Below, piece after piece: positions 29,600-48,266 of a stretch of 64,000 nt of DNA. The translations under genes were made by a program, and so were the position numbers. The stretch is from the human T2T-CHM13v2.0 reference genome, Homo sapiens, in the NCBI RefSeq assembly GCF_009914755.1, contig NC_060932.1. One strand, given 5' to 3'. The stretch's first letter is position 1; each line of letters opens with the position of its first letter. A model generated the notes under the pieces. It was not told where the DNA came from. It worked only from the letters and a program-made list of their open reading frames with translations, and made no database searches.

Positions 29600-29815
29600 T
29601 TTTTTTTTTTATTATACTTTAAGTTTTAGGGTACATGTGCACATTGTGCCAGTTAGTTACATATGTATACATGTGCCATGCTGGTGCGCTGCACCCACTA
29701 ACTCGTCATCTAGCATTAGGTATATTTCCCAATGCTATCCCTCCCCCCTACCCCCACCCCATCACAGTCCCCAGAGTGTGATATTCCCCTTCCTGTGTCC
29801 ATGTGATCTCATTGT

Positions 29816-32800
29816 TCAGTTCCCACCTATGGGTGAGAATATGCGGTGTTTGGTTTTTTCATCTTGCGATAGTTTACTGAGAATGATGATTTCCAATTTC
29901 ATCCATGTCCCTACAAAGGACATGAACTCATCATTTTTTATGGCTGCATAGTATTCCATGGTGTATATGTGCCACATTGTCTTAATCCAGTCTATCATTG
30001 TTGGACATTTGGGTTGGTTCCAAGTCTTTGCTATTGTGAATAATGCCGCAATAAACATACGTGTGCATGTGTCTTTATAGCAGCATGATTTATAGTCCTT
30101 TGGGTATATACCCAGTAATGGGATGGCTGGGTCAAATGGTAATTCTAGTTCTAGATCCCTGAGGCATCGCCACACTGACTTCCACAATGGTTGAACTAGT
30201 TTACAGTCCCACCAACAGTGTAAAAGTGTTCCTATTTCTCCATATCCTCTCCAGCACCTGTTGTTTCCTGACTTTTTAATGATCGCCATTCTAACTGGTG
30301 TGAGATGGTATCTCATTGTGGTTTTGATTTGCATTTCTCTGATGGCCAGTGATGATGAACATTTTTTCATGTGTTTTTTGGCTGCATAAATGTCTTCTTT
30401 TGAGAAGTGTCTGTTCATGTCCTTCGCCCACTTTTTGATGGGGTTGTTTGTTTTTTTCTTGTAAATTTGTTTGAGTTCATTGTAGATTCTGGATATTAGC
30501 CCTTTGTCAGATGAGTAGGTTGCGAAAATTTTCTCCCATTTTGTAGGTTGCCTGTTCACTCTGATGGTAGTTTCTTTTGCTGTGCAGAAGCTCTTTAGTT
30601 TAATTAGATCCCATCTGTCAATTTTGTCTTTTGTTGCCATTGCTTTTGGTGTTTTGGACATGAAGTCCTTGCCCATGCCTAAGTCCTGAATGGTAATGCC
30701 TAGGTTTTCTTCTAGGGTTTTTATGGTTTTAGGTCTAACGTTTAAATCTTTAATCCATCTTGAATTGATTTTTGTATAAGGTGTAAGGAAGGGATCCAGT
30801 TTCAGCTTCCTACATATGGCTAGCCAGTTTTCCCAGCACCATTTATTAAATAGGGAATCCTTTCCCCATTGCTTGTTTTTCTCAGGTTTGTCAAAGATCA
30901 GATAGTTGTAGGTATGCGGCATTATTTCTGAGGGCTCTGTTCTGTTCCATTGATCTATATCTCTGTTTTGGTACCAGTACCATGCTGTTTTGGTTCCTGT
31001 AGCCTTGTAGTATAGTTTGAAGTCAGGTAGTGTGATTCCTCCAGCTTTGTTCTTTTGGCTTAGGATTGACTTGGCAGTGCAGGCTCTTTTTTGGTTCCAT
31101 ATGAACTTTAAAGTAGTTTTTTCCAATTCTGTGAAGAAAGTCATTAGTAGCTTGATGGGGATGGCATTGAATCTATAAATTACCTTGGGCAGTATGGCCA
31201 TTTTCACGATATTGATTCTTCCTACCCATGAGCATGGAATGTTTTTCCATTTGTTTGTATCCTCTTTTATTTCCTTGAGCAGTGGTTTGTAGTTCTCCTT
31301 GAAGAGGTGCTTCACATCCCTTGTAAGTTGGATTCCTAGGTATTTTATTCTCTTTGAAGCAATTGTGAATGGGAGTTCACTCATGATTTGGCTCTCTGTT
31401 TGTCTGTTGTTGGTGTATAAGAATGCTTGTGATTTTTGTACATTGATTTTGTATCCTGAGACTTTGCTGAAGTTGCTTATCAGCTTAAGGAGATTTTGGG
31501 CTGAGACAATGGAGTTTTCTAAATACACAATCATGTCGTCTGCCAACAGGGACAATTTGACTTCCTCTTTTCCTAATTGAATACCCTTTATTTCCTTCTC
31601 CTGCCTAATTGCCCTGGCCAGAATTTCCAACACAATGTTGAACAGGAGTGGTGAGAGAGGGCATCCCTGTCTTGTGCCAGTTTTCAAAGGGAATGCTTCC
31701 AGTTTTTGTCCATTCAGTATGATGTTGGCTGTGGGTTTGTCATAGACAGCTCTTATTATTTTGAGATACATCCCATCAATACCTAATTTATTGAGAGTTT
31801 TTAGCATGAAAGGTTGTTGAATTTTGTCAAAGGCCTTTTCTGCATCTATTGAGATAATCATGTGGTTTTTGTCTTTGGTTCTGTTTATATGCTGGATTAT
31901 ATTTATTGATTTGCATATATTGAACCAGCCTTGCATCCCAGGGATGGAGCCCACTTGATCATGGTGGATAAGCTTTTTGATGTGCTGCTGGATTCGGTTT
32001 GCCAGTATTTTATTGAGGATATTTGCATCAATGTTCATCAAGGATATTGGTCTAAAATTCTCTTTTTTTGGTTATGTGTCTGCTCGGCTTTGGTATCAGG
32101 ATGATGCAGGCCTCATAAAATGAGTTAGGGAGGATTCCCTCTTTTTCTATTAATTGGAATAGTTTCAGAAGGAATGGTACCAGTTCCTCCTTGTACCTCT
32201 GGTAGAATTCGGCTGTGAATCCATCTGGTCCTGGACTCTTTTTTGTTGGTAAGCTATTGATTATTGCCACAATTTCAGAGCCTGTTATTGGTCTATTCAG
32301 AGAGTCAACTTCTTCCTGGTTTAGTCTTGGGAGGGTGTATGTGTCAAGGAATTTATCCATTTCTTCTAGATTTTCTAGTTTATTTGCATAGAGGTGTTTG
32401 TAGTATTCTCTGATGGTAGTTTGTATTTCTGTGGGATCGGTGGTGATATCCCCTTTATCATTTTTTATTGCGTCTATTTGATTTTTCTCTCTTTTCTTCT
32501 TTATTAGTCTTGCTAGTGGTATATCAATTTTGTTGATCCTTTCAAAAAACCAGCTCCTGGATTCATTGATTTTTTGAAGGGTTTTTTGTGTCTCTATTTC
32601 CTTCAGTTCTGCTCTGATTTTAGTTATTTCTTGCTTTCTGCTAGCTTTTGAATGTGTTTGCTCTTGCTTTTCTAGTTCTTTTAATTGTGATGTTAGGGTG
32701 TCAATTTTGGATCTTTCCTGCTTTCTCTTGTGGGCATTTAGTGCTATAAATTTCCCTCTACGCACTGCTTTGAATGCGTCCCAGAGATTCTGGTATGTTG

Positions 32801-33644
32801 TGTCTTTGTTCTCATTGGTTTCAAAGAACATCTTTATTTCTGCCTTCATTTCGTTATGTACCCAGTAGTCATTCAAGAGCAGATTGTTCAGTTTCCATGT
32901 AGTTGAGCGGCTTTGAGTGGGATTCTTAATCCTGAGTTCTAGTTTGATTGCACTGTGGTCTGAGAGATAGTTTGTTATAATATCTGTTCTTTTACATTTG
33001 CTGAGGAGAGCTTTACTTCCAACTATGTGGTCAATTTTGGAATAGGTGTGGTGTGGTGCTGAAAAAAATGTATATTCTGTTGATTTTGGGTGGAGAGTTC
33101 TGTAGATGTCTATTAGGTCCGCTTGGTGCAGAGCTGAGTTCAATTCCTGGGTATCCTTGTTGACTTTCTGTCTCGTTGATCTGTCTAATGTTGACAGTGG
33201 GGTGTTAAAGTCTCCCATTATTAATGTGTGGGAGTCTAAGTCTCTTTGTAGGTCACTCAGGACTTGCTTTATGAATCTGGGTGCTCCCGTATTGGGTGCA
33301 TATATATTTAGGATAGTTAGCTCTTCTTGTTGAATTGATCCCTTTACCATTATGTAATGGCCTTCTTTGTCTCTTTTGATCTTTGTTGGTTTAAAGTCTG
33401 TTTTATCAGAGACTAGGATTGCAACCCCTGCCTTTTTTTGTTTTCCATTTGCTTGGTAGGTCTTCCTCCATCCTTTTATTTTGAGCCTATGTGTGTCTCT
33501 GCACGTGAGATGGGTTTCCTCAATAGAGCACACTGATGGATCTTGACTCTTTATCCAATTTGCCAGTGTGTGTCTTTTAATTGGAGAATTTAGTCCATTT
33601 ATATTTAAAGTTAATATTGTTATGTGTGAATTTGATCCTGTCAT
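29816..33644 (-). pseudogene. L1-A ORF2 (endonuclease/RT) broken by a single +1 frameshift
   Basis: 530-aa (33644-32052) and 741-aa (32041-29816) ORFs; A7 instead of A6 at 32063-32069; RT motif LADD instead of FADD. Confidence 0.95.
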
Positions 33645-46700: not shown

Positions 46701-47843
46701 ATAGACCAATCTAACAGAACAGAGCCCTCAGAAATAATGCTGCATATCTACAACTATCTGATCTTAGACAAACCTGACAAAAACAAGCAATGGGGAAATG
46801 ATTCCCTATTTAATAAATGGTGCTGGGAAAAATGGCTAGCCACATGTAGAAAGCTGAAACTGGATCCTTTCCTTACACCTTATACAAAAATTAATTCAAG
46901 ATGGATTAAAGACTTAAATGTTAGACCTAAAACCATAAAAACCCTAGAAGAAAACCTAGGCATTACCACTCAGGACATAGGCATGGGCAAGGACTTCATG
47001 TCTAAAACACCAAAAGCAATGGCCACAAAAGCCAAAATTGACAAATGGGATCTAATTAAACTAAAGAGCTTCTGCATAGCAAAAGAAACTACCATCAGAG
47101 TGAACAGGCAACCTACAAAATGGGAGAAAATTTTCACAATTTACTCATCTGACAAAGGGCTAATATCCAGAATCTACAATGAACACAAACAAATTTACAA
47201 GAAAAAAACAAACAACCCCATCAAAAAGTGGGTGAAGGACATGAACAGACACTTCTCAAAAGAAGACATTTATGCAGCCAAAAAACACATGAAAAAATGT
47301 TCATCATCACTGGCCATCAGAGAAATGCAAATCAAAACCACAATGAGATACCATCTCACACCAGTTAGAATGGCAATCATTAAAAAGTCAGGAAACAACA
47401 GGTGCTGGAGAGGATATGGAGAAATAGGAACACTTTTACACTGTTGGTGGGACTGTAAACTAGTTCAACCATTGTGGAAGTCAGCGTGGCGATTCCTCAG
47501 GGATCTAGAACTAGAAATACCATTTGACCCAGCCATCCCATTACTGGGTATATACCCAAAGGACTATAAATCATGCTGCTATAAAGACACATGCACACGT
47601 ATGTTTATTGCGGCACTATTCACAATAGCAAAGACTTGGAACCAACCCAAGTGTCCAACAAGGATAGACTGGATTAAGACAATGTGGCACATATACACCA
47701 TGGAATACTATGCAGCCATAAAAAATGATGAGTTCATGTCCTTTGTAGGGACATGGATGAAATTGGAAATCATCATTCTCAGTAAACTATCGCAAGGACA
47801 AAAAACCAAACACTGCATGTTCTCACTCATAGGTGGGAATTGA
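43761..47843 (+). pseudogene. L1-B ORF2, disrupted by AluYb insertion and +1 frameshift
   Basis: 471-aa and 741-aa ORFs; A7 at 45590-45596; LADD motif. Confidence 0.95.
45159..45400 (+). mobile_element. 5'-truncated AluYb8-type element
   Basis: 7-bp duplication GCAGTCCGCAGTCC, CTAACAAGG, GGGAAGCGG, GAGATTGCG diagnostics; ~40-nt pure A tail; TSD AATAGCTTACCA 45147-45158 and 45401-45412. Confidence 0.95.
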
Positions 47844-48266
47844 AAAATGAGAACACATGGACACAGGAAGGGGAACATCACACTCTGGGGACTGTTGTGG
47901 GGTCGGGGGAGGGGGGAGGGATAGCATTAGGAGATATATCTAATGCTAAATGACGAGTTAATGGGTGCGGCACACCAGCATGGCACATGTATACATATGT
48001 AACTAACCTGCAGATTGTGCACATGTACCCTAAAACTTAAAGTATAATAATAATAAAACTAAATTTAAAAAATAAATAAAAATAAAAAAATTAAAAAATA
48101 AGTTTAAAACTATCCCAAAATTAAAAGTTTAATTAAGAAAAAGTGAAGGTCTCACTCCCACACCTTACAGGTAGCTCTTGTTGTCTTTCCTCTCAAACAT
48201 AATTCAATCTATGTTTTCGTGCACCTTGTCAAATATTATATATAGGATATACTGAACAAAATATTA

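What the first reader, a model, noticed from the sequence alone, without database searches (positions are those of the whole stretch)
29600..48098. Two independently inserted, inverted full-length L1s homogenised in a patchwork, consistent with arm-to-arm gene conversion
Seen: L1-A (minus) and L1-B (plus) have different intact TSDs and different subfamily characters (129-bp 5'UTR segment only in B; PEKN vs PDKN; TKDKID vs TKAKID; 3'UTR ttggga/tagatg vs ttagga/taaatg), so they are separate insertions. They nevertheless share many changes that differ from the L1 consensus as I recall it, along their whole length: 5'UTR 'caagccatcagcg', IEETH, K(N/K)[33 protein letters not shown], the same A7 frameshift (32063-32069 and 45590-45596), DANILN, VGSIPG, RAVYD, LADD, LENSIV, KLLMT, ATGTKT, RGYGEI, IKTMW. 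About 44880-46290 is nearly identical to its mirror, while flanking parts alternate shared and distinct sites. Inference: a frameshift and an RT-motif change are unlikely to be inherited from active source elements, so they were probably copied after insertion by repeated short conversion or heteroduplex repair, as in palindrome arms.
Basis: partly seen in the sequence, partly recalled or inferred. Interest (0 to 1): 0.9.

Follow-up and report, generated by a model that had tools for sequence, protein, structure and literature searches.

The report
Gene conversion between two inverted L1s
Two old jumping-gene copies that landed head-to-head 6 kb apart on human chromosome 8 have since copied about 1.2 kb of sequence from the older one into the younger one, a clean but ordinary example of DNA repair making neighbouring repeats alike.

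Summary
L1-A (minus, 29600-35628) and L1-B (plus, 41646-48102) are full-length L1s of different subfamily grade. B has the 128/129-bp 5'UTR segment and old-type alleles; A lacks the segment and has young-type alleles.

Homology stops at the L1 ends. Overall divergence is 3.98%.

B 44852-46301 (A 31358-32553) has 4 differences in 1196 aligned bp (0.33%), against 4.89% elsewhere (Poisson P 2e-20). In this tract:
- A carries B's old-type diagnostic alleles and 18 alleles found in at most 1 of 27-28 other copies.
- A and B form a clade with 100% support; in both flanks they sit apart.
- A 21-mer with three of these changes occurs only in the two arms genome-wide.

This is non-reciprocal B-to-A gene conversion, roughly 0.5-9 Myr old.

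Outside the tract, A shares 11 of 51 non-CpG rare alleles with B. Fourteen control copies share 8 of 596. That supports further very short exchanges, less securely.

- The A7 frameshift is a slippage hotspot (7 of 27 other copies).
- A's TSD is not clearly intact.
- The arms are not homogenised overall.

Known kind, new instance.

The parts
29600..35628 (-). L1-A: full-length L1 without the 129-bp 5'UTR segment, young-type (L1PA3-short/L1PA2-like) diagnostic alleles; T11 (poly-A) at 29600-29610; 5' end GGGGGGAGGAGCC at 35628
   Evidence: closest panel copies outside the tract are L031 (1.9-2.4%) and L029/L041
41646..48102 (+). L1-B: full-length L1 with the 129-bp 5'UTR segment (42424-42551), old-type alleles like the two panel copies that also carry the segment (L036, L042); A-rich tail to 48102
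41635..41645 (+). 5' copy of L1-B target-site duplication TTTAAAACTAT (3' copy at 48103-48113)
44852..46301 (+). Donor copy of the main conversion tract in B (maximal bounds; minimal 44884-46151); ORF2, includes the A7 run 45590-45596 and the FADD-to-LADD site 46115
31358..32553 (-). Recipient copy of the main conversion tract in A (maximal; minimal 31508-32521); carries B's old-type and private alleles; A7 run 32063-32069
45159..45400 (+). 5'-truncated young Alu (about 203 bp body + A39) inserted in B inside the tract, absent from A; TSD AATAGCTTACCA at 45147-45158 and 45401-45412
   Evidence: two other genome copies identical over 197 bp, 37 more with one mismatch among 40 scored
42065..42068 (+). 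5'UTR cluster of three substitutions shared with A (35207-35210), bounded by A/B differences at 42021 and 42079; candidate short conversion patch of at most 57 bp
   Evidence: 24-mer found only in the two arms in the whole genome
35629..41634 (.). 6.0-kb spacer between the 5' ends of the two inverted L1s

Best explanation
Two L1 retrotransposons inserted independently, 5' end to 5' end and 6 kb apart. B came first, from a lineage that still had the 129-bp 5'UTR segment. A came later, from a lineage that had lost it.

Much later, a double-strand break or nick in A's ORF2 was repaired using B on the same chromatid, or on the sister, as template. This copied 1.0-1.2 kb of B into A without reciprocal exchange. 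That is non-allelic gene conversion with B as donor and A as recipient.

The copied stretch carried B's accumulated private mutations, including the A-run frameshift and the FADD-to-LADD change. Since then each arm has gained about two substitutions in the tract, so the event is roughly 0.5-9 Myr old, best guess 2-3 Myr.

About ten further isolated shared rare variants elsewhere suggest additional very short exchanges, or patchy repair of longer heteroduplex.

Shown: the tract, its direction, its non-reciprocity, and the genome-wide uniqueness of the multi-site variants. Inferred: the repair mechanism, the date, and the origin of the scattered sites.
For: - **Divergence.** 4 of 1196 in the tract against 235 of 4808 outside. 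Poisson P(<=4) = 2e-20. None of 78 panel pairs shows more than 2 shared rare sites in this interval, against 18 for A-B.
- **Direction.** At diagnostic sites in the tract (44934, 45052, 45406, 45559, 45780, 45824, 45889, 45894, 46052, 46151) A carries the old-type allele. It is young-type on both flanks (44837; 46385, 46579, 46628). B is old-type throughout.
- **Trees.** In the tract A+B has UFBoot 100, a stem of 0.021 and tips of 0.0018. In the left flank B sits among L042, L026, L023 and L036, with weak nodes (40-51). In the right flank B pairs with L026 (support 90). In both flanks A sits near L029, L038 and L041.
- **Not a sub-lineage.** A 21-mer with three tract variants and a 24-mer with the 5'UTR cluster each occur exactly twice in the 3.1-Gb genome, once per arm.
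- **Independent insertion.** Homology stops at the L1 ends. B has its own TSD. The 129-bp segment is in B only. A 129-bp deletion that fixed in L1PA3 is described in bioRxiv 10.1101/429613 (passages read).
- **Scattered sites.** A shares 11 of 51 non-CpG rare alleles with B. Fourteen control copies share 8 of 596; Fisher P 1.2e-8.
Against: The young Alu lies inside the donor tract but is absent from A. So either it inserted after the conversion, which fits its near-identity to many other copies, or the conversion was discontinuous.

Two of the four differences in the tract are B-private alleles that A lacks (45468, 45695). They could be unconverted sites rather than later mutations.

For the scattered sites:
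- Four of four single-variant 25-mers tested are not unique (101, 422, 62 and 126 genome matches).
- 47300-T is present in 3 of 3 additional copies.
- Run-length statistics outside the tract are within the range of unrelated panel pairs.
- The low divergence of 47234-47796 is general, not specific to A-B.
- One shared site (44485) is flanked by A/B differences 2 and 9 bp away, an implausibly short tract for ordinary conversion.

No read-level or other-haplotype check was possible.
Confidence: 0.9

Rival explanations
1. The shared variants are inherited: A and B descend from the same minor L1 source lineage, and no post-insertion exchange occurred.
For: Single-site variant 25-mers outside the tract occur in 62-422 other copies. 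47300-T is in L059-L061. Other copies are as close to B as A is over 47234-47484 and closer over 47404-47692.
Against: A and B differ at dozens of subfamily-diagnostic sites outside the tract. The multi-site variants are unique to the pair genome-wide. Eight carriers of 47680-C are older, heterogeneous copies that lack the other shared variants; one, L056, shows 47300-T and 47416-A but is 42% divergent and probably misaligned. Inheritance cannot give 0.33% divergence in one 1.2-kb block and 4.9% around it.
Confidence: 0.04
2. Assembly artefact: one arm's tract was mis-polished or collapsed onto the other in this assembly.
For: None from the sequence. It simply could not be excluded with reads here.
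Against: The tract is only 1.2 kb and is flanked on both sides by about 5%-divergent sequence within 6-kb arms. It still holds 4 differences, and an Alu is present in one arm only. Errors of this kind would be expected to give exact identity.
Confidence: 0.02
3. Reciprocal exchange: two crossovers between the inverted arms (two inversions of the spacer) swapped the segment.
For: Inverted L1 pairs are known substrates of inversion; an example is HsInv0341, L1PA3 arms of 6.2 kb, in PMC3961182 (passages read).
Against: A reciprocal swap would leave the arms as different as before. Here both arms carry the same B-type alleles. B's two TSD copies are still paired, and A's inner and outer ends are both young-type.
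Confidence: 0.02
4. Only one conversion event occurred. The roughly ten scattered shared sites outside it are parallel mutations or unsampled polymorphism of the L1 source population.
For: Each scattered site is a common recurrent variant genome-wide. The possible patches are 10-162 bp. There are no unusual identity runs outside the tract. The panel was picked by similarity to the tract only.
Against: The same panel and the same criterion give 0-2 non-CpG shared sites for each of 14 control copies, against 11 for A. The 5'UTR cluster of three changes in 4 bp is unique to the pair.
Confidence: 0.35

Closest known systems
Non-allelic (interlocus) gene conversion between nearby transposable-element copies
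   Same: Non-reciprocal transfer between dispersed repeat copies on one chromosome. The review PMC6598467 (passages read) states that rates are elevated for copies within 10 kb and depend on identity. The arms here are 6 kb apart and about 95% identical. L1-to-L1 conversion during break repair is cited in PMC1920257 (passage and reference to Tremblay et al. 2000 read).
   Different: Most documented cases in that review concern Alu. Here both partners are full-length 6-kb L1s of different subfamily grade in inverted orientation. The donor is the older, more decayed copy.
Arm-to-arm conversion in large palindromes (sex-chromosome palindromes)
   Same: Inverted arms with a spacer, and intrachromosomal non-reciprocal exchange.
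   Different: Palindrome arms arise by duplication and stay nearly identical along their length (recalled, not checked in a call). Here the arms arose by two insertions and remain 4.9% divergent except for one tract.
Inverted-repeat-mediated polymorphic inversions with L1 arms (e.g. HsInv0341)
   Same: Same architecture: two inverted L1 copies of about 6 kb a few kb apart (PMC3961182, table passage read).
   Different: No inversion is shown here. This locus is not among the entries seen in that paper's passages. TSD pairing indicates the original orientation in this haplotype.

Membership tests
Non-allelic gene conversion | Partners are paralogous, non-allelic sequences of independent origin | tested here: met
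   Homology limited to the L1 bodies. Different subfamily grade. B has its own TSD. A's TSD is ambiguous.
Non-allelic gene conversion | A bounded tract with divergence far below that of the flanks | tested here: met
   4 of 1196 against 235 of 4808, Poisson P 2e-20. No comparable block in 78 panel pairs or in the 37 control pairs examined for identity runs.
Non-allelic gene conversion | Phylogenetic incongruence between tract and flanks | tested here: met
   A+B clade UFBoot 100 in the tract. A with young copies and B with old copies in both flanks.
Non-allelic gene conversion | Non-reciprocal: both copies carry the donor's private variants | tested here: met
   18 shared alleles at frequency 0-1 of 27-28 in the tract. 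The 21-mer is unique to the two arms.
Non-allelic gene conversion | Ancestral (pre-conversion) state visible in an outgroup or other haplotype | not testable with these tools
Palindrome with concerted arm evolution | Arms near-identical along their whole length | tested here: not met
   4.89% divergence outside the tract, the same as unrelated copies of these subfamilies.
Inverted segmental duplication | Homology extends into flanking non-repeat DNA | tested here: not met
   The alignment breaks down immediately outside both L1 ends.
L1PA3-short/younger versus L1PA3-long/L1PA4 grade (names from the literature) | Absence or presence of the 129-bp 5'UTR segment | tested here: met
   128-bp gap in A against B 42424-42551. 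2 of 15 panel copies that cover the 5'UTR carry it. The deletion is described in 10.1101/429613. No RepeatMasker subfamily call was available.

The most novel reading that the evidence does not exclude
The scattered single-site sharing suggests that the two arms pair repeatedly over their whole 6-kb length. Shared rare alleles lie between unconverted diagnostic differences only 2-60 bp away, in the 5'UTR, ORF2 and near the 3' end. Pairing could be intrastrand fold-back or sister exchange. Mismatches in long heteroduplex at only about 95% identity would then be repaired one at a time. If so, an autosomal pair of unrelated L1 insertions behaves as a weak, ongoing palindrome with ultra-short patch conversion. 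It may be polymorphic among humans and bidirectional: B carries young-type T at 43818.
Probability: 0.3. Interest if true: 0.5.

Novelty: new member of a known kind. Interest (0 to 1): 0.3.

Why it matters
It is a well-resolved natural example of post-insertion exchange between two L1s. Such exchange moves decay mutations and subfamily-diagnostic characters between copies.

This matters for practice. Age and subfamily calls for individual L1 copies, based on divergence from consensus and diagnostic sites, are distorted by such tracts. A's ORF2 looks 3.1% rather than about 2.2% from a young copy in the tract.

Inverted L1 pairs of this geometry are also substrates for inversion, so evidence of pairing here marks the 6-kb spacer as a candidate recurrent inversion.

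It does not open a new question. Gene conversion between nearby repeats is established.

Tried and rejected
- **Whole genome as a file:** not available.
- **A second batch of 18 full-length panel copies:** The panel is therefore 20 long stretches (13 full-length copies used as controls) plus 8 fragments. All were picked by similarity to the tract, so older subfamilies are thinly represented: 2 copies with the 129-bp segment.
- **A second tract at 47234-47796:** rejected. Uniform-rate run-length tests suggested extra identity runs outside the tract. Real panel pairs show 2-11 runs of 100 bp or more. Divergence of 1.2-1.9% there is general for A-like, L029-like and young (L031) copies, though L041, L036 and L042 are 3.2-4.3%.
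- **Single-variant 25-mer counts as a test of privacy:** uninformative. By my own rough estimate, in a family of tens of thousands of copies any single substitution recurs tens to hundreds of times.
- **The A7 frameshift as a marker of conversion:** rejected as independent evidence.
- **Absence of premature stops in ORF2 of both arms:** not significant. Expected 2.2 and 3.2 stops; P(0) 0.12 and 0.04.
- **GC bias among transferred alleles outside the tract:** not evident from the alleles listed (3 W-to-S, 6 S-to-W, 3 neutral, hand count).
- **Whether this locus is a catalogued inversion:** not resolved. It was not among the entries in the passages of PMC3961182 that I read. Supplements and later catalogues were not examined.
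Full report
**Anatomy**

The window holds two full-length L1 elements in inverted orientation, 5' ends facing each other across a 6.0-kb spacer.
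- L1-A lies on the minus strand at 29600-35628, with a T11 tail at 29600-29610.
- L1-B lies on the plus strand at 41646-48102.

A global alignment of the reverse complement of A with B gives 239 substitutions in 6004 aligned positions, or 3.98%. There are two large gaps in A.
- One is 128 bp in the 5'UTR (B 42424-42551).
- The other is 254 bp in ORF2 (B 45147-45400).

The second gap is a 5'-truncated Alu with about 39 A's and a 12-bp target-site duplication, AATAGCTTACCA.

Beyond the L1 termini the two sides are unrelated. B is flanked by an 11-bp duplication, TTTAAAACTAT, at 41635-41645 and 48103-48113. For A only an ambiguous A5GG 7-mer merging with the poly(A) could be found. So 'intact TSD' holds for B but not clearly for A.

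**Comparison set**

I searched it with B 44880-46290 and took the best-scoring other L1 copies. That gave 20 stretches of 7 kb and 8 fragments of 3.9 kb.

Eight short stretches and three more full-length copies were added later.

The panel was therefore chosen by similarity to the tract. Only two of its copies (L036, L042) carry the 129-bp segment.

**Two insertions of different grade**

At sites where the panel splits into old-type and young-type alleles, B follows the old-type copies from the 5'UTR to the 3'UTR. A follows the young-type copies; its nearest relatives are L029, L041 and L031.

The 129-bp segment is the one whose loss became fixed in L1PA3 and younger subfamilies. It is described as escape from ZNF93 in bioRxiv 10.1101/429613 (passages read).

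The subfamily names L1PA4/L1PA3-long for B and L1PA3-short or younger for A are my inference. No RepeatMasker call was available.

**The main tract**

Between B 44852 and 46301 (A 32553-31358) there are only 4 differences in 1196 aligned bp (0.33%). Outside there are 235 in 4808 (4.89%). At the outside rate the Poisson probability of 4 or fewer is 2e-20.

In this interval A and B share 18 alleles found in at most 1 of 27-28 panel copies. Seventy-eight panel pairs share 0-2.

At ten diagnostic sites in the tract A carries the old-type allele, yet it is young-type immediately on both sides.

Maximum-likelihood trees agree.
- In the tract, A and B form a clade with ultrafast-bootstrap 100, a stem of 0.021 and tips of 0.0018.
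- In the left flank, B falls among the old copies L042, L026, L023 and L036, with weak nodes (40-51).
- In the right flank, B pairs with L026 (support 90).
- In both flanks, A sits near the younger copies L029, L038 and L041.

A 21-mer carrying three of the tract's private substitutions occurs exactly twice in the 3.1-Gb genome, once in each arm.

The donor was therefore B and the recipient A, and the exchange was non-reciprocal. The boundaries lie between 44851 and 44884 on the left and between 46151 and 46302 on the right.

The FADD-to-LADD change in the reverse-transcriptase motif (46115) and the A7 run (45590-45596 / 32063-32069) both lie inside the tract.

**Age**

Of the four differences in the tract, two are private to A; one of these is a CpG transition. 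Two are private to B.

Two substitutions per arm in 1196 bp is 0.17% per lineage. With a neutral rate of 0.5-1e-9 per site per year (general knowledge) this is about 2-3 Myr. The Poisson range for 4 events widens that to roughly 0.5-9 Myr.

The tips are about 8% of B's total branch.

**The Alu**

The Alu in B lies inside the donor tract but is absent from A. Its 197-bp body is identical to two other genomic copies. It is one mismatch from 37 more among the 40 scored, so it is very young.

From memory, its 7-base duplication near the 3' end is the AluYb8/9 hallmark. I did not find a passage confirming this.

The simplest order is conversion first, Alu second. A discontinuous tract is the alternative.

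**Outside the tract**

All 16 listed peptide variants are shared, and 15 are at 0-1 of 25-28 in the panel. Seven of them lie outside the tract: IEETH, PTQ, ASRKQE, KLLMT, ATGTKT, RGYGEI and IKTMW.

With the 31-copy panel, A shares 11 of its 51 non-CpG rare alleles with B outside the tract. Fourteen control copies share 8 of 596, at most 2 each (Fisher P 1.2e-8). CpG sites are shared 3 of 3 against 18 of 74.

The strongest case is a cluster of three substitutions within 4 bp of the 5'UTR (B 42065-42068). It is absent from 15 of 15 panel copies. Its 24-mer is unique to the two arms genome-wide. It is bounded by A/B differences 57 bp apart.

Results against the patchwork are these.
- Four of four single-variant 25-mers are not unique: 101, 422, 62 and 126 matches. 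By my rough estimate this is what recurrent mutation in tens of thousands of copies would give, so the test neither supports nor refutes privacy.
- Eight fetched carriers of 47680-C are older, heterogeneous copies without the other shared variants. One, L056, shows 47300-T and 47416-A but is 42% divergent and probably misaligned.
- By hand comparison of the lists for chromosomes 1-3, none of 12 carriers of 47680-C carries the 47416-A 25-mer.
- 47300-T is in 3 of 3 added copies and so is a lineage variant.
- Identity runs outside the tract fall within the range of unrelated panel pairs.
- The low divergence of 47234-47796 (A-B 7 of 563) is matched by A-like, L029-like and young (L031) copies at 7-11 of 563; L041, L036 and L042 differ at 18-24 of about 560.
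- Other copies are as close to B as A is, or closer, in 47234-47484 and 47404-47692.
- The shared site 44485 sits 2 and 9 bp from unconverted diagnostic differences. That fits patchy mismatch repair or parallel mutation better than an ordinary tract.

I rate further exchange outside the tract at about 0.6.

**Rivals**

- A shared source lineage cannot give a 15-fold divergence drop in one block, and it is contradicted.
- A reciprocal double crossover would not make the arms alike.
- An inverted duplication is excluded by the flanks.
- An assembly artefact is unlikely. The tract is short, flanked by 5%-divergent sequence, and still carries four differences and a one-arm Alu. Reads could not be checked.

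- The A7 run is also found in 7 of 27 other copies, 5 as CC+A7 and 2 as CA+A7. It is a slippage hotspot and not independent evidence.
- PDKN is private to B.
- The arms are not homogenised overall.

**Comparison with what is known**

Non-allelic gene conversion between transposable-element copies, elevated for copies within 10 kb, is reviewed in PMC6598467 (passages read). L1-templated repair of a break in an L1 is cited in PMC1920257. Inverted L1PA3 pairs of 6.2 kb flank a validated human inversion in PMC3961182.

This locus is a new, well-resolved instance of that known kind. I did not find it named in the passages read. Supplements and later inversion catalogues were not examined.

Noticed in passing
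window 45159-45400 (TSD 45147-45158 and 45401-45412): Very young 5'-truncated Alu with an uninterrupted A-run of about 39. Its body is identical to two other genomic copies, and 37 of the 40 scored copies differ by one base. It may be polymorphic in humans. Yb8/9 assignment is from memory only.
   Followed up: partly
window 29816-33644 (A) and 43761-47843 (B): ORF2 of both arms has no premature stop. It is interrupted only at the A-run frameshift, and in B also by the Alu. Expected stops from the number of rare alleles are about 2.2 and 3.2, so this is not significant. ORF1 is truncated in both.
   Followed up: yes
window 43877-43884 (B) / 33521-33528 (A): Both arms carry changes at the same few positions. 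At 43879 A has C and B has A, where all ten other copies displayed for this stretch have G. This is next to the shared rare G at 43884. It could be a local hotspot or error-prone repair synthesis.
   Followed up: no
window 43818: B carries the young-type T where both 129-bp-bearing copies and all intermediate copies have G. A also has T, between A/B differences at 43805 and 43837. This is a possible short A-to-B patch, hinting at exchange in both directions.
   Followed up: no
window 34708-35349: The RefSeq 'enhancer' feature lies wholly inside the 5'UTR of L1-A, so it probably reflects L1 promoter activity rather than a locus-specific element.
   Followed up: no
panel copies, alignment columns for B 45125-45126: The dinucleotide CT is found in some of the oldest copies (L042, L023, L026) and youngest-type copies (L031, L033, L046, L024), while intermediates have AG. 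This non-monotonic pattern along the L1PA ladder was not explained.
   Followed up: no
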